A stretch of 64,000 bases of DNA. Source: Candidatus Binatota bacterium. GTDB taxonomy: Bacteria > Desulfobacterota > Binatia > UBA1149 > CAITLU01. Below, one piece after another: positions 5,512 through 37,067 of the stretch. Position 1 is the first letter of the stretch, and each line of letters opens with the position of its first letter. The translations under genes were made by a program, and so were the position numbers. The stretch lies in the NCBI GenBank assembly GCA_024276575.1, contig JAJRWY010000312.1:1161-65160 (forward strand). The letters run 5' to 3'. The notes beneath the pieces are model-generated. The model did not search any database, was not told the origin of the DNA, and saw nothing but the letters and a program-made list of their open reading frames with translations.

Positions 5512-6345
5512 TTAAGCCCCGCGCACGTCGAGGGCTTCCCGCAATGCGTCTCCCAGTGTGTTGAGAGCCAGCACGGTCAAGCTGATGGCGATTCCGGGAA
5601 AGACGGTCAGGTGCGGGGCAATGAGGAGAAAACTGCGGCCTTCGTTGAGCATGGAGCCCCAGGATGCTTGCGGCGCTTGCACTCCCAGGCCCAGGAAACT
5701 CAACCCAGCCTCTGCGGTTATTGCTCCCGCCAACCCGAAGCTGGCCTGAACCGTCAAAGGTCCGGCTAGCATAGGCATTATGTGGCGGCTGAGTATGCAC
5801 AACGGCGTTACGCCCAGTGATCGGGCCGCTTCGACGTGCTCGCGTTTCTTCAGCGCCAGCACTTCGCCGCGGACCAAGCGAGCGTAGCCCGTCCATCCGA
5901 TCAGACTCAAGGCTAGCACCACGTTGACCAGCGACGGGCCCAGCACTGCGCTCATTGCGATTGCCAGCAGTATCCCGGGGAAGGCCATCAGTATGTCGAT
6001 GAAACGTGAGATCCAGAAATCGACCGCAGCTCCGGCATAGGCTGATATGGCGCCGACGGAAACTCCGATAAGCAATGAAAAACTAATAGTTAGCAGTCCA
6101 ACGTAAAGGGATACACGAGCCCCGTGCAGGAGCCGGCTAAGTTGGTCCCTGCCCAGCTTGTCCTGCCCCAACGGATGCTCGATGGAGGGTGGCGCGAGGT
6201 TCTCCGCGAGTTGTTGGCGGTCGGGCGGGTAGGGCGCGAGCAGGTCCGCACCGATCGCGGCGGTGCATAGTATCGCGATTACTGCCGATCCGAAGGCAAT
6301 GCCACGCCGGCGAGCCCTGCCTTTGTTTTCAGTCGGAGTCGTCAA
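5512..6345 (-). CDS. ABC transporter permease, DppC/OppC family
   Basis: Six predicted TM segments and a peptide/nickel-permease N-terminus; overlaps the upstream permease gene by 17 nt. Confidence 0.8.
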   Translation of the reverse strand: MTTPTENKGRARRRGIAFGSAVIAILCTAAIGADLLAPYPPDRQQLAENLAPPSIEHPLGQDKLGRDQLSRLLHGARVSLYVGLLTISFSLLIGVSVGAISAYAGAAVDFWISRFIDILMAFPGILLAIAMSAVLGPSLVNVVLALSLIGWTGYARLVRGEVLALKKREHVEAARSLGVTPLCILSRHIMPMLAGPLTVQASFGLAGAITAEAGLSFLGLGVQAPQASWGSMLNEGRSFLLIAPHLTVFPGIAISLTVLALNTLGDALREALDVRGA

Positions 6346-31397: not shown

Positions 31398-31703
31398 ATG
31401 TGGCCTTTCGACAATAGCTTCTATGAGGAAATATCGGCTCGGTTCGAAACTCTGCTCAAGGACGGTGAGGACGCCGGAAATACCAATGATCTGTCGGCTT
31501 TGCTTGCTCCGGTGGATCCTTTCAACCGTTCACCCTTGTTTACACCGGTCGTGAAAGCTCTGGGCGTCGCTGCGTTGGTAGCAATGACCGGGCTTGCCGC
31601 AGCCGGTTTAGTCGTGGCCTTCGTTGCTTTCCTCGGTCTTTACTTCTTGCTTACCGAAGTATTCGGTTACGAGCTTTCTCTGGCACCGCTGCAACCGATG
31701 TAG
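31398..31703 (+). CDS. Small hypothetical membrane protein
   Basis: 101-aa ORF with a C-terminal hydrophobic helix, positioned 5 nt after the preceding gene. Confidence 0.4.
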   Translation: MWPFDNSFYEEISARFETLLKDGEDAGNTNDLSALLAPVDPFNRSPLFTPVVKALGVAALVAMTGLAAAGLVVAFVAFLGLYFLLTEVFGYELSLAPLQPM

Positions 31704-32332
31704 ATTGCGTCTTGCCGTACGGCGAGACCGAGTATTAGAGCACAGGCGACGGCTGCCGCATCGCATGCCGCCACCGCGTGCCGCCACTGGCGCAGGTGCT
31801 TGTCGTAGCCACCGGCCTGCCGGCTGCGGTCTGAATAACGCGCGGGGAAATCGAGACCGGATGGTCCGTGATCTTGCGTTCGACGGTGGCTTGGCAAGGC
31901 GCCGTAGTTACGACAATCGCTAAACAGATCAGGAAGCGGTGCCTGTGGATGCACTCCGCAAACGAAACCGCAACCACCGCCATCCGGCTCAAAAGTGTAC
32001 CATACAATCGGTACCGAAGTTTTGCGGGCATGTTCGATTTGGTTCAGATCCGAATGCTCGACTCCCGCTACTATGTAGCAGGCGATAGAAGTGGATGTTT
32101 GTGTAGCTTTGCGACCTCGTCCCCGGAGGCTTTCAATGCCTGGACCATCGCTGCGCGAGGATACGCTGACCCCCGCTGCTCTCAAGTAAAGGGATGCTTG
32201 TTCCACGCCGCGAGGGTGCCCGAGCAGTACCACTGTCGCCGCCAGTAACTTTCCCTGGCCTTCCGCACCGATGCCGGGGATGATGATCTGTCGCGCATAG
32301 CGTTCAATGCTCTCATCATCGAGAGTAGCCAT
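31667..32332 (-). CDS. Divergent E1-like (ThiF/MoeB N-terminal motif) protein with a degenerate nucleotide-binding loop; possibly a pseudogene
   Basis: N-terminus ERYARQIIIPGIGAEGQGKLLAATVVLLG matches the E1 first helix and beta-1, but GxGxxG is replaced by GHPRGV. The remainder resembles no known family. Confidence 0.35.
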   Translation of the reverse strand: MATLDDESIERYARQIIIPGIGAEGQGKLLAATVVLLGHPRGVEQASLYLRAAGVSVSSRSDGPGIESLRGRGRKATQTSTSIACYIVAGVEHSDLNQIEHARKTSVPIVWYTFEPDGGGCGFVCGVHPQAPLPDLFSDCRNYGALPSHRRTQDHGPSGLDFPARYSDRSRQAGGYDKHLRQWRHAVAACDAAAVACALILGLAVRQDAIYIGCSGARESS

Positions 32333-32359: not shown

Positions 32360-32599
32360 TCATTCTATGACGTTCTTCTCTATCGGCTCGACAGTGACGC
32401 CTTGCTCGGCGATCCATCGTACGGCCCGGTCAATCTCGTCTTGCTCACCTTCGAGTTCGAGAGCCATGATGCCCACATGCTCAGAAATCGAAGCACCGCG
32501 TATATTGGTGACCACGCGGAACTTGTGTCCGACGTGGTAAACGATCGGCTCCTTTATCTTCTCTTGGCTGTAGGTCAGGTAGAAACGTTGAAGTGTCAT
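32360..32599 (-). CDS. NIL-domain protein
   Basis: The 79-aa ORF matches the NIL domain pattern seen at the MetN C-terminus (VVTNIRGASISEHVGIMALELEG...VEPI); it overlaps the cysM-like stop by 4 nt. Confidence 0.6.
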   Translation of the reverse strand: MTLQRFYLTYSQEKIKEPIVYHVGHKFRVVTNIRGASISEHVGIMALELEGEQDEIDRAVRWIAEQGVTVEPIEKNVIE

Positions 32600-33579
32600 T
32601 GGTTCTCCTCCGCGGCGGCGAGTTCATGGCGGTCGCGCCAGCCGGTCCACAGATTCGTAGATAAGTAGCGGTCGCCAAAATCGGGTAGCACTACCACCAC
32701 GCACCCGGATTGCAACTCCGCAGCCACTTCCAGTGCTGCGACTACCGCGGCACCGGAGGACTGTCCGACCAGCAGACCTTCTTTGGCGGCCAACTCGTAA
32801 ACCATCTCGTAAGCGGCATCGGTAGCCACACCCACCTTGCGGTCGAAGCCGGATTCGTCGTAAATACCCGGCACGATCGAGCTGCCCATGTGCTTCAAGC
32901 CTTCTATCCCGTGGAAGGCGTCGTCGGGCTCCACGGCTATTATTTCGACCTCAGGCTTGCGCGATCTCAAGTAGCGGCCGCAGCCCATTACGGTTCCGCT
33001 GGTACCGATCGTGGCGAGAAAGTGAGAGACGCGGCCGGCAGTTTGCTCCCAGATCTCGGGTCCTGTGGTCAGGAAGTGGGCCTCCGGATTGGCCGGGTTG
33101 TAGTACTGGTCGGGTTTGAAGTACGCGTCGGGATCGGCGTCGAACATCTTTTTGGCCAAGACGATGGAGCCGTCGGACCCTTCCATCGGATCGGACTCGA
33201 CTATTTCGGCGCCGTAAGCCGCAATCACCCGCAATCGTTCGCGTGAGGCGTTGGCGGGTATCACTAATTTTACCGGATATCCCAGCGCAGCGCCGATCAT
33301 CGCCAGCGCGATGCCGGTGTTGCCGGAAGTAGAATCGAGAATGGTTTTGCCGGGGCGTAAGTGTCCGTCTTCCAATCCACGACGCACCATGTTCCAGGCC
33401 GGGCGGTCTTTGACCGAACCGCCGGGGTTGAAGCCCTCGACTTTGGCGTACACTTCTACACCGCCGGCCAAGTGCGGGGTTACACCTCGCAGTTGGAGCA
33501 ACGGTGTGTCGCCGATCAAGTCGAGTATGCCTGTGGCCTCCGCCTCATTAAGGGTCGGCTGTTGGCGAGTCCGGTGCAC
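32596..33579 (-). CDS. Cysteine synthase family PLP enzyme (CysM/CysK-like)
   Basis: PLP-lysine motif GGSVKDRPAWNMV, IGDTPLLQL substrate-loop region and GTGGT motif. The start is uncertain: GTG at 33579, or TTG at about 33519. Confidence 0.85.
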   Translation of the reverse strand: MHRTRQQPTLNEAEATGILDLIGDTPLLQLRGVTPHLAGGVEVYAKVEGFNPGGSVKDRPAWNMVRRGLEDGHLRPGKTILDSTSGNTGIALAMIGAALGYPVKLVIPANASRERLRVIAAYGAEIVESDPMEGSDGSIVLAKKMFDADPDAYFKPDQYYNPANPEAHFLTTGPEIWEQTAGRVSHFLATIGTSGTVMGCGRYLRSRKPEVEIIAVEPDDAFHGIEGLKHMGSSIVPGIYDESGFDRKVGVATDAAYEMVYELAAKEGLLVGQSSGAAVVAALEVAAELQSGCVVVVLPDFGDRYLSTNLWTGWRDRHELAAAEENQ

Positions 33580-33854
33580 GCGCCGCCGGCGATAGCGGGA
33601 ACGATGGAGATTTCGTCGCCGTCTTTGACGGCGGACTCCAGGTCATCAAGAAAGCGAATGTCATCGCCGTTCACGTAAACATTTACGAAACGCCGTACTG
33701 AACCGTCGCGTTCGCAGATGCGCTCCTTGAGGCCTGGATGGGCTGCCTCGACGCTGTCGAGAACCGCGGCCACGGTCGAGCCTTCTGCGTCGACGGCTTC
33801 GTTGCCGCCTGTAAACTTTCTCAGGGGTGTGGGGATTCTTACCCGGACTGCCAT
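33516..33854 (-). CDS. MoaD/ThiS/CysO-family sulfur-carrier protein with a 21-residue extension after the Gly-Gly
   Basis: Beta-grasp carrier sequence MAVRVRIPTPLRKF...GDEISIVPAIAGG, then ACTGLANSRPLMRRRPQAYST before the stop. A strong RBS (AGGAGG) lies 7 nt upstream of the ATG. The tool ORF has a spurious 77-aa leader. Confidence 0.75.
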   Translation of the reverse strand: MAVRVRIPTPLRKFTGGNEAVDAEGSTVAAVLDSVEAAHPGLKERICERDGSVRRFVNVYVNGDDIRFLDDLESAVKDGDEISIVPAIAGGACTGLANSRPLMRRRPQAYST

Positions 33855-33891
33855 GTTGTAGTTCCTCCTAAGTCGAATTCCGCCGATCCTA

Positions 33892-35184
33892 TCACGAACC
33901 GGTGGCCGGAGAAGCAATCGTGGAAGCCTGATCGCCGCCGGCTGTCTTGCCGGCTTCAAGACGCTCGTAAAGACGGTCGAATTCGTCGAGACGTGCTGCG
34001 ATATCGTGGGTGACCGGAACCGAATCACGAACCGCCTCGAGGGTCTTGTAGCCGTTGCCGGTAATAGAGATGACGATCGACTCATCTCGGGGTATGCGGC
34101 CTTGCTCTATGAGTTTCTTGGTAACCGCCACCGTGGTGCCCCCGGCCGGCTCGGTAAACACACCTTCCGTACGCGCCAGTAGTTTGATTGCTTCCACTAT
34201 TTCTTCGTCGCTAGCTGATTCACCCCATCCTCCGGAATCCCTGACCGCTCCGAGAACGTAATAGCCGTCGGCCGGGTTGCCGATCGCGATCGACTTGGCG
34301 ATGGTATGAGGCTTTACCGGTTCGATAAGGTCGGTTCCCCGGTGAAGGGCGTTGACGACCGGAGCGCAACCGGCGGCTTGCGCGGAGTATATCTTGAATC
34401 CGCTCTGCTCGACCAAGCCTACCCGCTGCAGCTCTTCAAAGGACTTGGCGACTTTGGGCAAGATGGTGCCGCCGGCGGTAGGAACGACGATGTGTTGGGG
34501 GAGCTTCCAGCCGAGTTGTTCGGCCACTTCGAATCCGTAAGTTTTGGCTCCTTCGGTGTAAAAAGGCCGCAGGTTGATGTTTGCGAAAGCCCAGCCGTAC
34601 TTGTCCGCGATCTCGGTGCACAGGCGGTTAACGTCGTCATAATTGCCGGAGATCGCGACCGGGACCGGGTTGTATATGGCCGATCCCACCACCTTGCCTT
34701 GTTCGAGGTTGTCGGGGATGAAGATGAAGCACCGCAGGCCGGCGCGTGCTGCATGGGCGGAAACGGAATTGGCTAGGTTGCCGGTAGAGGCGCATGCGAC
34801 GGTTTCGAAGCCGAACTCGACCGCTTTGGTCAGCGCGACCGAGACTACGCGGTCCTTGTAGGAGAAGGTCGGGTGGTTGACCGAATCGTCTTTTACGTAG
34901 AGTTCCGAGACGCCGAGCACTTCTGCCAAGCGATCGGCTTTGAGCAAGGGAGTAAAACCTGAATACAGGCCGATACGCGGCTCGGACTCCACCGGAAGCA
35001 ACTCGCGATATCTCCACAGGTTGGGTGGCCTCGCTTCAATGGTCTTGCGATCGACCGCAGCCGATATCTTGTCATAGTCGTATTCTACTTCGAGGGGGCC
35101 AAAGCAGTATTCACAGACGTGGTAGGGCTTGAGTTCGTAAGCCTCGCCACATTCACGGCACTTGAGGCCTTTTACAAAAGACAT
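33892..35184 (-). CDS. Threonine synthase family PLP enzyme with an N-terminal zinc ribbon
   Basis: CRECGE...CEYCFG zinc ribbon, PLP-lysine motif FSYKDR, RBS AAGGAGA; 431 aa counted from MSFVKGLKC. Confidence 0.85.
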   Translation of the reverse strand: MSFVKGLKCRECGEAYELKPYHVCEYCFGPLEVEYDYDKISAAVDRKTIEARPPNLWRYRELLPVESEPRIGLYSGFTPLLKADRLAEVLGVSELYVKDDSVNHPTFSYKDRVVSVALTKAVEFGFETVACASTGNLANSVSAHAARAGLRCFIFIPDNLEQGKVVGSAIYNPVPVAISGNYDDVNRLCTEIADKYGWAFANINLRPFYTEGAKTYGFEVAEQLGWKLPQHIVVPTAGGTILPKVAKSFEELQRVGLVEQSGFKIYSAQAAGCAPVVNALHRGTDLIEPVKPHTIAKSIAIGNPADGYYVLGAVRDSGGWGESASDEEIVEAIKLLARTEGVFTEPAGGTTVAVTKKLIEQGRIPRDESIVISITGNGYKTLEAVRDSVPVTHDIAARLDEFDRLYERLEAGKTAGGDQASTIASPATGS

Positions 35185-35198
35185 GGTAGTTATCTCCT

Positions 35199-35957
35199 TC
35201 AGCGGTCGATGCCGGGCGCTGCAGCGGCGGGCTCGTAACCGCGGGGTCGTGAACGGGTTTCCCCCGAGCGGGAGCATCGCGGGCAAGCGGGATCCCTGGG
35301 GAAATATACATGGCGCCAACGGCACCCTGACAATTCATAGATATTCATGCGGCCGGGACACAGGCTTTTGTCTCCACCAAGGTAACGAAGCGCGTCTTGC
35401 GCTTGTGCGGTTCCCACCAAGCCGGCCACTGGTGCGAGAATGCCCATAGCTGAACAGCCGCCGTCGGCTTCCTGCGGGTGGTCGTCGGGGAAAGCGCATG
35501 CGAGGCAGGCCGACACGCCCGGCACCACGGTCATCCATTGGCCGGTGGTTCTGATCACACCGCCGTAACAGAAAGCGGTGCCGGTCGAGACTGCAACGGC
35601 GTTTATCATGAATTTCGTGGCCGGGTCGTCACAAGCGTCGATCACGAAATCATGAGAGGAAACGAGGCTCTCGGCGTTGCCGGTGTTCAACGTATCTTCG
35701 ATGGGACGAATTTCAGTGGTAACAGGGCCGCCGGCGGATGCGGCTAGAGCCTTACGCGCGGCCTCGGCCTTGGGTGCTCCGACGTCGCTGTCGCCGAACA
35801 AGACCTGCCGCTGCAGGTTCGAAAGCTCGATGCGGTCGGGGTCGATAATCGTGAGTTTGGCAACTCCGGCGCCCACGAGCATGCGCGCGGCAGCGCAACC
35901 GAGGGCGCCGACGCCCACCAACAGAACCGAATCTTTTGTTTGCTGCTGCAAGTACAA
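35199..35957 (-). CDS. ThiF/MoeB-family E1-like adenylyltransferase; start codon uncertain and canonical N-terminal helix absent
   Basis: LLVGVGALGCAAARMLVGAGV...ELSNLQRQ and C-terminal CxxC pairs (CLAC, CPRC). The reading frame runs directly out of the riboswitch terminator U-tract. Confidence 0.8.
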   Translation of the reverse strand: MYLQQQTKDSVLLVGVGALGCAAARMLVGAGVAKLTIIDPDRIELSNLQRQVLFGDSDVGAPKAEAARKALAASAGGPVTTEIRPIEDTLNTGNAESLVSSHDFVIDACDDPATKFMINAVAVSTGTAFCYGGVIRTTGQWMTVVPGVSACLACAFPDDHPQEADGGCSAMGILAPVAGLVGTAQAQDALRYLGGDKSLCPGRMNIYELSGCRWRHVYFPRDPACPRCSRSGETRSRPRGYEPAAAAPGIDR

Positions 35958-35990
35958 AAAAACCTCTTCCAGGCGGGATAAGGAAGAGGT
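35954..35990 (-). terminator. Intrinsic terminator forming the riboswitch expression platform
   Basis: On the minus strand the sequence reads CCUCUUCC-UUAUCCCGCCU-GGAAGAGG-UUUUUUU: a perfect 8-bp stem followed by a U7 tract. The 5' arm can pair with the upstream AUAAGGAGAGG as an antiterminator. Confidence 0.7.
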
Positions 35991-36007
35991 ACTGGGTCGC
36001 GGCGACA

Positions 36008-36165
36008 GGCCTCTCCTTATCTTTCACCCTCTTTGCATTTGCGTGAACTCGATTACGCGCTCACCGCAACGCTAAGGTGCGGGACTTAGCACCTGCCGCC
36101 CGCTTGCGCAGGCCGGTTGCTGTGGCTTCACAGGGCCCATTCCCTCCGCCACTCTGAATAAGGAA
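36008..36165 (-). promoter_or_regulatory. SAM-I (S-box) riboswitch aptamer
   Basis: The minus-strand RNA reads UCCUUAUUCAGAGUGGCGGAGGGAAUGGGCCCUGUGAAGCCACAGCAACC...GGUGCUAAGUCCCGCACC...AUAAGGA. This matches the SAM-I consensus CUUAUCAAGAG-GGCGGAGGGA-UGGCCC-AUGAA-CC-GCAACC / GGUGCUAA-UCC-GCA, including the kink-turn and the J3/4 pseudoknot region. Confidence 0.8.
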
Positions 36166-36170
36166 CGGAA

Positions 36171-36200
36171 AGGGTAGCGGCACTAGGCCTCACTGTCAAA
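36171..36200 (-). promoter_or_regulatory. Putative sigma-70-type promoter driving the riboswitch
   Basis: On the minus strand, TTGACA is followed by 17 nt and then TACCCT, placed immediately 5' of the aptamer P1 helix. Confidence 0.45.
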
Positions 36201-36332: not shown

Positions 36333-37067
36333 ATGTCGCGTCGTGTAGAGTTACAGGGGCTTCGCAATTTTCGAGATCTGGGTGGGTTTAACACCCACGA
36401 CGGGCGCCGTACGGCTACCGGGCGCTTGTTTCGCTCCGACGGCTTGCACCGTGTCAGCGCCGCCGACCTTCGCTTACTCGAAGCGATGTCGATACGCAGG
36501 GTCTACGACCTGCGTAGCCAGATCGAGTTGGATAATGACGGAGTCGGGCCGTTTGCAGGGGCCGCCGGACGGCACCGGCATATGCCTCTTATCAAGGTCA
36601 GTTTGAACCCTTACGATCCCGATCTCGATTGGAAAACGATGGACTTGCGCAACCGCTACTACGAAATGCTGTGCGAAGGCGCTGCAACTATAGCCGCCAT
36701 ACTCGGTGAACTGTCGGTGGCCGGTTGCGAGCCTGCGGTTTTTCACTGCAGTGGGGGCAAGGATCGCACGGGAGTGCTCGCTGCGGTTATTCTGCGGAGT
36801 TTAGGGGTAGCCGATGATGATATCGTAGCCGACTATGCTCTGTCGGAACGCTATCTCTCGCCGGTGGTCGAGCGCTACCGGGAGGCTATGGAGGCCGGAG
36901 GTATAGACGAAGAGACGGTTTCGTATCTTATCTCGAGTCCGCCCGAGCGAATGATTCATACCCTGAACAAGATGGACGAGTGTTGGGGCGGGATCCGCGG
37001 TTACTTGGATGCGATTGGGGTGAGCGAACGACAGGTCCGCGGTCTCGAGCGCAATCTGTTGATATGA
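36333..37067 (+). CDS. Protein-tyrosine phosphatase family protein (Y_phosphatase3-like)
   Basis: CX5R catalytic loop HCSGGKDRTG and an N-terminal LRNFRDLGG motif. Confidence 0.75.
   Translation: MSRRVELQGLRNFRDLGGFNTHDGRRTATGRLFRSDGLHRVSAADLRLLEAMSIRRVYDLRSQIELDNDGVGPFAGAAGRHRHMPLIKVSLNPYDPDLDWKTMDLRNRYYEMLCEGAATIAAILGELSVAGCEPAVFHCSGGKDRTGVLAAVILRSLGVADDDIVADYALSERYLSPVVERYREAMEAGGIDEETVSYLISSPPERMIHTLNKMDECWGGIRGYLDAIGVSERQVRGLERNLLI

What the first reader, a model, noticed from the sequence alone, without database searches (positions are those of the whole stretch)
35950..36200. SAM-I riboswitch with promoter and intrinsic terminator controlling a sulfur-carrier operon
The minus-strand transcript contains almost every conserved element of the SAM-I aptamer (CUUAUUCAGAGUGGCGGAGGGAAUGGGCCCUGUGAAGCC...GCAACC...GGUGCUAAGUCCCGCACC). 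It is followed by a sequence (AUAAGGAGAGG) that can pair either with the P1 5' strand or with the 5' arm of a perfect 8-bp stem plus U7 terminator, which is the classic antiterminator/terminator switch. A TTGACA-N17-TACCCT promoter lies directly upstream. SAM-I elements regulate methionine, cysteine and SAM genes, so this assigns the downstream ThiF/ThrC/MoaD/CysM/NIL operon to sulfur amino-acid metabolism rather than to threonine or molybdopterin synthesis.
Basis: partly seen in the sequence, partly recalled or inferred. Interest (0 to 1): 0.8.

Follow-up and report, generated by a model that had tools for sequence, protein, structure and literature searches.

The report
Ordinary SAM-I riboswitch before sulfur-carrier operon
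This is a genuine but typical SAM-sensing RNA switch that probably shuts off, by early transcription termination, an operon making homocysteine and cysteine through a protein sulfur carrier; the same riboswitch-pathway link was already reported in Streptomyces.

Summary
Rfam RF00162 (SAM-I) matches window 36164..36014 (minus strand) over the full model at 75.8 bits, against a gathering score of 44.4. The same aptamer lies upstream of the same operon in 65 of 80 related genomes, mostly Candidatus Binatia MAGs. All four helices covary: 96% of cells are paired, against 36-46% for slid controls.

The expression platform is as described. The P1 3' strand pairs either with the P1 5' strand or with the terminator 5' arm. 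The terminator is a 9-bp stem followed by U7. A TTGACA-N17-TACCCT promoter sits 6 nt upstream of P1, and the -35 box is conserved in 62 of 64 loci.

The operon encodes a ThiF-like E1, a ThrC-like (MetM-type) enzyme, a CysO-like carrier, CysM, a NIL protein and a small ThiF-like ORF. This matches the MetM/MetO thiocarboxylate route to homocysteine, which is reported to sit behind a SAM riboswitch in Streptomyces albulus. The finding is therefore a new member of a known kind and of low interest.

The most novel side observation concerns the E1. The first-gene ThiF lacks its N-terminal Arg-finger segment. A degenerate mini-ThiF at the operon end retains that segment. This suggests a split, heterodimeric E1.

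The parts
36194..36199 (-). -35 box TTGACA
   Evidence: this is the only TTGACA-N17-TANNNT in the window, against 0.12 expected. TTGAC occurs within 70 nt upstream of the aptamer in 62 of 64 related loci, against a 4% background.
36171..36176 (-). -10 box TACCCT (3 of 6 matches to TATAAT, with A2 and T6 kept). It lies 6 nt before P1, so the inferred transcription start is at about 36166-36164.
   Evidence: In one search, close relatives (L004, L005, L006, L008, L036) have a TAnnnT box 6-7 nt before P1.
36014..36164 (-). SAM-I aptamer: the P1-P4 four-way junction.
   Evidence: RF00162, 75.8 bits, E 5.5e-16, full model; 102 bits with my own model; covariation in all helices.
36031..36072 (-). 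42-nt insertion that lengthens the distal part of P4 (coordinates approximate).
   Evidence: the alignment shows a 42-nt insert in the P4 loop; the P1-forced fold makes it an extended hairpin. L003 has a similarly long P4.
36010..36021 (-). Switching segment GAUAAGGAGAGG: it serves as the 3' strand of P1 or as the 5' strand of the antiterminator.
35977..35989 (-). CCUCUUCCUUAUC: it serves as the 3' strand of the antiterminator, or as the terminator 5' arm plus part of the loop.
   Evidence: In one search the same motif (CCTCTTCCTTATC or a covarying variant) appears in most relatives.
35956..35990 (-). Intrinsic terminator: ACCUCUUCC, an 11-nt loop, GGAAGAGGU, then U7 (35962-35956).
   Evidence: the hairpin alone folds at -14.2 kcal/mol; 54 of 66 aptamers in relatives are followed by a hairpin plus a U-run.
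35963..35970 (-). GGAAGAGG: both the terminator 3' arm and the only Shine-Dalgarno-like sequence before the first gene.
   Evidence: (sequence). The SD role is inferred.
35199..35957 (-). ThiF/MoeB-family E1-like adenylyltransferase, 252 aa. Its TTG start is formed by the end of the U-tract. It lacks the N-terminal RYxRQ segment.
   Evidence: Pfam ThiF 1.9e-60, profile positions 20-237; in the near relatives checked (L002-L006, L036) the frame is open from the U-tract TTG, and no RYxRQ motif is present.
33892..35187 (-). ThrC-family PLP enzyme with an N-terminal Cys-rich ribbon; a MetM-type candidate homocysteine synthase.
Evidence: PALP; NF006050 at 312.6 bits. P0001 is 100% identical.
33516..33857 (-). 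ThiS/MoaD-family sulfur carrier of CysO/MetO type. The GG motif is followed by an unusual 21-aa tail.
   Evidence: ThiS 7.4e-19; best PDB matches are CysO chains 4n6e_B (6e-26) and 3dwg_C (1e-22); relatives end in GG or GG plus one residue.
32596..33579 (-). CysM-type cysteine synthase.
   Evidence: TIGR01138 at 361.5 bits, below its curated cutoff of 394.2..
32360..32599 (-). Stand-alone NIL-domain protein, 79 aa.
   Evidence: PF09383, 6e-15.
31667..32332 (-). ORF6: a degenerate mini ThiF-like protein. It keeps the N-terminal IERYARQI (Arg-finger) segment but has no intact GxGxxG motif.
   Evidence: the N-terminal 55-70 aa match MoeB, ThiF and Uba4. R11, Y12, R14 and Q15 are invariant in the family; the AF2 model has pLDDT 77.7 and its best fold match is E. 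coli ThiF.

Best explanation
This is a SAM-I (S-box) riboswitch acting as a transcriptional OFF switch for a six-gene sulfur-carrier operon.

Transcription starts about 6 nt after a TTGACA-N17-TACCCT promoter, essentially at the first base of P1.

When SAM is abundant, it is inferred to bind the four-way-junction aptamer and lock P1 (UCCUUAU:AUAAGGA). CCUCUUCC is then free to pair with GGAAGAGG. That hairpin followed by U7 terminates transcription just before the first gene. In any read-through transcript the same hairpin also buries the Shine-Dalgarno-like GGAAGAGG. The first gene's TTG start codon overlaps the end of the U-tract.

When SAM is scarce, the P1 3' strand GAUAAGGAGAGG instead pairs with CCUCUUCCUUAUC, giving a 12-bp antiterminator with one bulge. 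The terminator cannot form and the operon is expressed.

The operon is inferred to work as follows:
- An E1-like ThiF adenylates a CysO/MetO-type carrier.
- The carrier thiocarboxylate feeds a ThrC-like MetM-type enzyme (O-phosphohomoserine to homocysteine) and CysM (to cysteine).

SAM therefore feedback-represses sulfur assimilation into methionine and cysteine.

Shown here: aptamer family membership, covariation, the alternative pairings, conservation of synteny, and the protein families. Inferred: SAM binding, termination in vivo, and the enzyme activities.
For: - Full-length RF00162 hit at 75.8 bits. The same family scores 70.9-87.4 bits in 10 of 11 related loci tested.
- My own covariance model finds the aptamer on the operon strand upstream of the MetM homologue in 65 of 80 loci.
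- In the 66-sequence alignment, 96.2% of cells are paired, against 36-46% when partners are slid. 18 of 33 pairs show compensatory changes. P1, P2, P3 and P4 each have pairs changed on both sides.
- The P1-forced fold (-83.4 kcal/mol) keeps the terminator. The antiterminator-forced fold (-85.5) abolishes it. The platform alone prefers the antiterminator (-22.5 to -24.9) over the terminator hairpin (-14.2).
- A hairpin plus U-run follows 54 of 66 aptamers, and the arm sequences covary.
- The promoter pattern is unique in the window, and the -35 box is conserved in 62 of 64 loci against a 4% background.
- Protein families are given. The carrier is most similar to CysO.
- The operon order is conserved across the loci.
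- Literature: the MetM/MetO/Mec/MoeZ thiocarboxylate route from O-phosphohomoserine (GapMind 2026 preprint), and the statement that S. albulus metM has an upstream SAM riboswitch (PMC12172450).
Against: - Nothing here is experimental.
- The -10 box is weak (TACCCT).
- The unconstrained minimum-free-energy fold of the whole leader does not reproduce the aptamer. This is usual for ligand- and tertiary-structure-stabilised aptamers.
- 11 related loci checked have the same operon but no Rfam-detectable riboswitch, so the control is not universal.
- The operon has no rhodanese/sulfurtransferase domain and no JAMM (Mec-type) hydrolase, both of which the published pathway needs. They would have to be encoded elsewhere.
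- I could not read the primary paper (Hasebe et al. 2024). I also could not compare the ThrC-like protein directly with S. albulus MetM.
Confidence: 0.85

Rival explanations
1. The same SAM-I aptamer acts mainly on translation. The hairpin's role would be to hide the Shine-Dalgarno-like GGAAGAGG and the adjacent TTG start, with the U-run incidental.
For: The terminator 3' arm is the only SD-like sequence, and it ends 5 nt before the TTG start. That start overlaps the U-tract. In the near relatives checked (L002-L006, L036) the frame is open from this TTG. [quoted passage not shown]
Against: In most relatives the hairpin plus U-run is kept (54 of 66), while the first gene starts tens of nucleotides further downstream (for example L009-L012 and the Binataceae loci). 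There the hairpin cannot be an SD sequestrator. A 9-bp GC-rich stem followed by U7 is a canonical intrinsic terminator. The two modes can coexist in this window.
Confidence: 0.1
2. The aptamer is a decayed or non-functional relic, or it responds to a ligand other than SAM.
For: The unusually long P4 carries a 42-nt insert. There are no experimental data.
Against: All conserved core positions match the Rfam consensus, and 53 positions are invariant across 11 relatives. There is strong covariation and a conserved platform and promoter. The downstream genes match SAM's known regulon. P4 length varies among the relatives (aptamer lengths 104-151 nt).
Confidence: 0.03

Closest known systems
SAM-I / S-box riboswitch (Rfam RF00162), e.g. 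Bacillus subtilis yitJ and metI leaders
   Same: It has the same four-way junction P1-P4 and the same conserved core. It uses the same terminator/antiterminator logic, in which the P1 3' strand is shared with the antiterminator. It controls methionine and cysteine genes.
   Different: The host is an uncultured Binatia-like Gram-negative lineage. P4 carries a 42-nt insert. The transcript appears to start directly at P1. The terminator 3' arm doubles as the SD-like sequence, and the U-tract overlaps the TTG start codon.
Streptomyces albulus metM-metO locus (Hasebe et al. 2024, Appl Environ Microbiol 90:e01247-24; known to me only through PMC12172450 and the GapMind 2026 preprint)
   Same: A ThrC-homologous enzyme sits next to a ThiS/MoaD-type sulfur carrier, downstream of a SAM riboswitch. 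The pathway is assigned to homocysteine synthesis from O-phosphohomoserine.
   Different: Here the operon also carries its own E1 (ThiF-like, without the rhodanese domain of MoeZ), CysM, a NIL protein and a mini-ThiF. No Mec-type hydrolase is in the operon. Sequence similarity to S. albulus MetM and MetO was not tested.
Mycobacterium tuberculosis CysO-CysM-Mec-MoeZ cysteine pathway
   Same: The carrier matches M. tuberculosis CysO (3dwg_C, E 1e-22), and a CysM homologue is adjacent.
   Different: To my knowledge the mycobacterial locus is not described as riboswitch-controlled (not checked here). Here CysM shares the carrier operon with a MetM-type enzyme. The CysM is at least as similar to enterobacterial CysM as to the O-phosphoserine-specific mycobacterial enzyme.
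Heterodimeric ThiF-family/E1 enzymes (yeast Tcd1-Tcd2; eukaryotic SAE1-SAE2, APPBP1-UBA3)
   Same: One subunit holds the active ATP site and the partner supplies the N-terminal Arg finger in trans. PMC13139853 describes this for Tcd1-Tcd2 and gives ThiF Arg11 and MoeB Arg14 as the equivalent fingers. The window's ThiF lacks that segment and ORF6 keeps it.
   Different: Complex formation was not tested here. ORF6 is only about 160 aa in most relatives. According to PMC13139853, the Arg finger is catalytically non-essential in MoeB and ThiF.

Membership tests
SAM-I riboswitch (RF00162) | Covariance-model score above Rfam's gathering threshold over the full model | tested here: met
   75.8 bits against 44.4, model positions 1-108 of 108, E 5.5e-16. 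It is the best family within clan CL00012.
SAM-I riboswitch (RF00162) | Four helices P1-P4 around a junction, supported by compensatory changes | tested here: met
   96.2% of cells are paired, against 36-46% for slid controls. Pairs changed on both sides: 4 in P1, 3 in P2, 1 in the proximal part of P3 and 6 in its distal part, and 4 in P4. The alignment was fitted to the model, which favours the structure; the slid controls argue against an artefact.
SAM-I riboswitch (RF00162) | Pseudoknot between the P2 loop and J3/4, and the kink-turn in P2 | tested here: inconclusive
   The nucleotides involved match the Rfam consensus. They are invariant in relatives (G21-G23, and T81, C82, C83). There is therefore no covariation to count.
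SAM-I riboswitch (RF00162) | Binds S-adenosylmethionine | not testable with these tools
   This needs in-line probing, ITC or equilibrium dialysis.
SAM-I riboswitch (RF00162) | Expression platform with mutually exclusive P1/terminator and antiterminator pairings | tested here: met
   (constrained folds); 54 of 66 relatives have a hairpin plus U-run; 36 of 66 have an exact 6-mer complement to the P1 3' strand downstream.
SAM-I riboswitch (RF00162) | Lies in the 5' leader of methionine, cysteine or SAM genes | tested here: met
MetM/MetO thiocarboxylate homocysteine pathway | ThrC-homologous PLP enzyme encoded next to a ThiS/MoaD-type carrier with a C-terminal GG | tested here: met
   The window's carrier has a GG motif followed by a 21-aa tail. 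Relatives end in GG or GG plus one residue.
MetM/MetO thiocarboxylate homocysteine pathway | Sequence orthology to S. albulus MetM and MetO | not tested
   The reference sequences and the primary paper were not available.
MetM/MetO thiocarboxylate homocysteine pathway | Carrier-activating enzyme with sulfurtransferase (MoeZ) and a Mec-type JAMM hydrolase | tested here: inconclusive
   An E1-like ThiF is present, but no rhodanese domain and no JAMM domain were hit in any operon protein. The rest of the genome was not examined.
MetM/MetO thiocarboxylate homocysteine pathway | Converts O-phosphohomoserine plus carrier thiocarboxylate to homocysteine | not testable with these tools
   This needs an enzyme assay or genetic complementation.
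CysO/CysM protein-thiocarboxylate cysteine pathway | CysO-like carrier adjacent to a CysM homologue | tested here: met
   (3dwg_C 1e-22; 4n6e_B 6e-26).

The most novel reading that the evidence does not exclude
The operon may encode a split, heterodimeric E1-like carrier-activating enzyme.

- The first-gene ThiF keeps the ATP site (GxGxxG, SNLQRQ, DACDD, Zn cysteines) but has lost the N-terminal RYxRQ Arg-finger segment.
- The last gene (ORF6) belongs to a Pfam-less family of about 160 aa with a ThiF-like fold. It has lost the nucleotide-binding motifs but keeps an invariant ERYARQI N-terminus, which it could donate in trans.

This would be a bacterial counterpart of the eukaryotic active/inactive E1 pairs (SAE1-SAE2, APPBP1-UBA3, Tcd1-Tcd2), arising inside a sulfur-carrier pathway.

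Support comes from the distribution of ORF6. It follows the operon in 40 of 51 loci with an N-truncated ThiF and in 0 of 9 loci with a full-length ThiF.
Probability: 0.3. Interest if true: 0.55.

Novelty: new member of a known kind. Interest (0 to 1): 0.25.

Why it matters
The riboswitch itself adds little, because any Rfam-based annotation would call it.

Its main use is as functional evidence. Across about 65 Binatia-type and related genomes, a SAM sensor sits in front of genes routinely annotated as "threonine synthase", "MoaD" and "ThiF". This supports re-annotating them as a MetM/MetO-type (plus CysO/CysM-type) thiocarboxylate route to homocysteine and cysteine. It also extends that recently described route from Streptomyces to a large uncultured lineage.

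The side observation of a possible split E1 would, if real, give a simple bacterial model for how asymmetric E1 heterodimers arise.

Tried and rejected
- The consensus promoter and terminator scans missed both elements because of their thresholds. I replaced them with pattern statistics and folding.
- Exact look-ups of the window's NIL protein and of P0001 found no contig on record. The cluster look-up gave no name. The organism is therefore only inferred, from relatives at 70-87% identity that are named Candidatus Binatia or Deltaproteobacteria MAGs.
- The primary MetM/MetO paper is not held.
- Literature searches for earlier reports of an S-box before thrC-like or carrier genes gave nothing useful.
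- An Rfam scan of 11 loci that have the operon but lack the aptamer found no alternative riboswitch class.
- MAFFT misaligned P4, so I built a model with hand-added P4 pairs.
- The 2.7-kb gap between MetM and the carrier in L016-type loci is an opposite-strand 851-aa ORF, not a missing Mec or rhodanese gene.
- I considered that the ThiF N-terminus might be hidden upstream. It is not: the frame has a TGA at 36026-36024 and no start codon before the TTG at 35957 (read).
- I did not attempt a complex prediction for ThiF plus ORF6. The structure tool takes single window proteins only.

Full report
**Observation**

A scan of the whole window against Rfam 15 gives one hit. It is RF00162 (SAM riboswitch, S-box leader) at 36164..36014(-), 75.8 bits against a gathering score of 44.4, E 5.5e-16, covering model positions 1-108 of 108. 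The only departure from the consensus is a 42-nt insertion in the distal part of P4. In the P1-constrained fold this insertion simply lengthens the P4 hairpin. Aptamer length varies among relatives from 104 to 151 nt, and L003 has a similarly long P4.

**Relatives and covariation**

The ThrC-like protein downstream is 100% identical to one database protein from a 69.7-kb NCBI contig. It is 70-87% identical to many proteins from MAGs named Candidatus Binatia, Deltaproteobacteria or Myxococcales.

A scan of one genome per species returned 80 loci. Rfam finds RF00162 (70.9-87.4 bits) in 10 of the first 11 loci tested. In each it lies on the operon strand, 0.8-1 kb upstream of the ThrC homologue. 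A covariance model built from these hits, with P4 pairs added by hand, finds the aptamer in 65 of 80 loci.

On the resulting 66-sequence alignment:
- 96.2% of cells are standard pairs, against 36-46% when the 3' partners are slid by 1-3 columns.
- 18 of 33 pairs have compensatory changes.
- Every helix (P1, P2, P3, P4) has pairs changed on both sides.

The alignment is fitted to the model, which favours the structure. The contrast with the slid controls is nevertheless large. The pseudoknot and kink-turn nucleotides are invariant, so they are consistent with the family but untestable by covariation.

**Expression platform**

GAUAAGGAGAGG (36021-36010) is the 3' strand of P1. It is also complementary, with one bulge, to CCUCUUCCUUAUC (35989-35977). 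The first eight bases of that segment pair with GGAAGAGG (35970-35963), and U7 follows at 35962-35956.

Folding gives these energies:
- With P1 forced, the leader adopts P2-P4 plus the terminator (-83.4 kcal/mol).
- With the antiterminator forced, the terminator is lost (-85.5 kcal/mol).
- The platform without the P1 5' strand prefers the antiterminator (-22.5 to -24.9), against -14.2 for the terminator hairpin alone.

This is the classic S-box OFF logic. In relatives, 54 of 66 aptamers are followed by a hairpin plus U-run, and the arm sequences covary (for example CCCTCGTCC/GGAAGAGGG and CCCCTTTCC/GGAAGGGG). 36 of 66 have an exact 6-mer complement to the P1 3' strand downstream.

In the window and in its near relatives that I checked (L002-L006, L036), the reading frame of the first gene is open from the TTG formed by the last two U's of the U-tract plus G. 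The terminator 3' arm is the only SD-like sequence. The hairpin can therefore also occlude translation initiation in read-through transcripts. In more distant relatives the gene starts well downstream of the U-run, so termination is the conserved mode.

**Promoter**

TTGACA-N17-TACCCT (36199-36171) is the only TTGACA-N17-TANNNT in 64 kb, where 0.12 are expected. TTGAC lies within 70 nt upstream of the aptamer in 62 of 64 loci, against a 4% background. In close relatives a TAnnnT box sits 6-7 nt before P1. The transcript therefore probably begins at P1 (inference).

**Operon**

On the minus strand, the downstream genes are:
- a ThiF-family E1 (35957-35199)
- a ThrC-family PLP enzyme with an N-terminal Cys-rich ribbon (35187-33892)
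- a ThiS/MoaD carrier (33857-33516)
- CysM (33579-32596)
- a NIL protein (32599-32360)
- a 221-aa ORF (32332-31667)

Convergent genes follow these. The order is conserved across the loci. The carrier's best solved-structure matches are CysO proteins: 4n6e_B at 6e-26 and M. tuberculosis CysO 3dwg_C at 1e-22.

The GapMind 2026 preprint describes the S. albulus pathway as MetO (carrier), Mec, MoeZ and MetM. MetM is a threonine-synthase homologue, often misannotated, that makes homocysteine from O-phosphohomoserine. PMC12172450 states that S. albulus metM has an upstream SAM riboswitch.

What differs here is that the operon carries its own E1 plus CysM, NIL and ORF6. It contains no rhodanese or JAMM domain.

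**Side observations**

1. The first-gene ThiF matches Pfam ThiF only from profile position 20. It has 14 residues before the GxGxxG strand and no RYxRQ motif. An in-frame TGA at 36026 excludes a longer ORF.
   - ORF6 begins MATLDDESIERYARQIIIPG. This aligns with the N-termini of Uba4, ThiF and MoeB.
   - Its family is about 160 aa, Pfam-less and annotated as hypothetical. R11, Y12, R14 and Q15 are invariant, but the Gly-rich loop is degenerate.
   - An AF2 model (pLDDT 77.7) matches E. coli ThiF best.
   - Across loci, ORF6 follows the operon in 40 of 51 cases where ThiF is N-truncated and in 0 of 9 where ThiF is full-length with ERYSRQI (Fisher p = 1e-5). This test is not corrected for phylogeny, and the full-length class may be a single clade.
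   - PMC13139853 documents that ThiF Arg11 and MoeB Arg14 act in trans. It also shows that yeast Tcd1 donates such a finger to Tcd2, but that the finger is non-essential in MoeB and ThiF.
   - A split heterodimeric E1 is therefore a reasonable but untested idea.
2. The carrier ends in GG or GG plus one residue in relatives, but in GG plus 21 residues here, overlapping cysM. A lost stop codon or a sequencing error is possible.
3. Eleven loci checked have the operon but no Rfam-detectable riboswitch.
4. In Latescibacterota and Tepidisphaeraceae loci, the aptamer directly precedes the MetM homologue with no ThiF between them.

**Verdict**

It is a standard SAM-I transcriptional OFF switch in a context already linked to SAM riboswitches. 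I rate it a new member of a known kind, with low interest (0.25). The more novel lead is the possible split E1 (probability about 0.3).

Noticed in passing
window 35957-35199 (-) and 32332-31667 (-); loci L002-L080: The first-gene ThiF lacks the N-terminal RYxRQ Arg-finger segment. A Pfam-less mini ThiF-like ORF of about 160-220 aa at the operon end keeps an invariant ERYARQI N-terminus but has a degenerate nucleotide-binding loop. ORF6 is present in 40 of 51 loci with a truncated ThiF and in 0 of 9 loci with a full-length ThiF. This suggests a split heterodimeric E1.
   Followed up: partly
window 33581-33516 (-): The CysO/MoaD-like carrier continues 21 residues past its GG motif (ACTGLANSRPLMRRRPQAYST) and overlaps the cysM start. 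Relatives stop at GG or at GG plus one residue (often R, L or A). This may be a lost stop codon (gcg tgc) or an assembly error. GG plus one residue in relatives implies a processing protease that the operon does not encode.
   Followed up: partly
window 35970-35955 (-): The terminator 3' arm GGAAGAGG doubles as the only Shine-Dalgarno-like sequence. The TTG start codon of the first gene is formed by the end of the U7 tract. The frame is open from this TTG in the near relatives checked (L002-L006, L036).
   Followed up: partly
L014, L017, L021, L022, L026, L027, L031, L039, L040, L059 (upstream of position 6001): These loci have the same ThiF-MetM-carrier operon, but no SAM-I aptamer and no other Rfam family hit upstream. 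Their regulation is unknown.
   Followed up: partly
L045, L050 (Latescibacterota), L074, L077 (Tepidisphaeraceae), about 5750-5950: The SAM-I aptamer sits directly before the MetM homologue with no ThiF gene between them. The gene order also differs (CysM comes before the carrier in L045 and L050).
   Followed up: no
L034 about 180-330; L037 about 1850-2030; L044 about 1900-2160: An extra 150-300 nt lies between the terminator and the ThiF start. The L034 and L037 stretches share similar sequence (e.g. CTCGCTCGACGTAC in L037, CTCGCTACGACGTAC in L034). This may be a small inserted repeat element.
   Followed up: no
window 32599-32360 (-): A stand-alone 79-aa NIL-domain protein is conserved in nearly all loci, directly after CysM. 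Its role in a carrier-dependent pathway is unknown. From memory, NIL domains occur in MetN and in NIL-ferredoxin proteins linked to homocysteine synthesis in anaerobes.
   Followed up: no
window 36333-37067 (+): A divergently transcribed tyrosine-phosphatase-family gene (PF13350, 5.6e-58) shares the 376-nt intergenic region with the riboswitch promoter.
   Followed up: no
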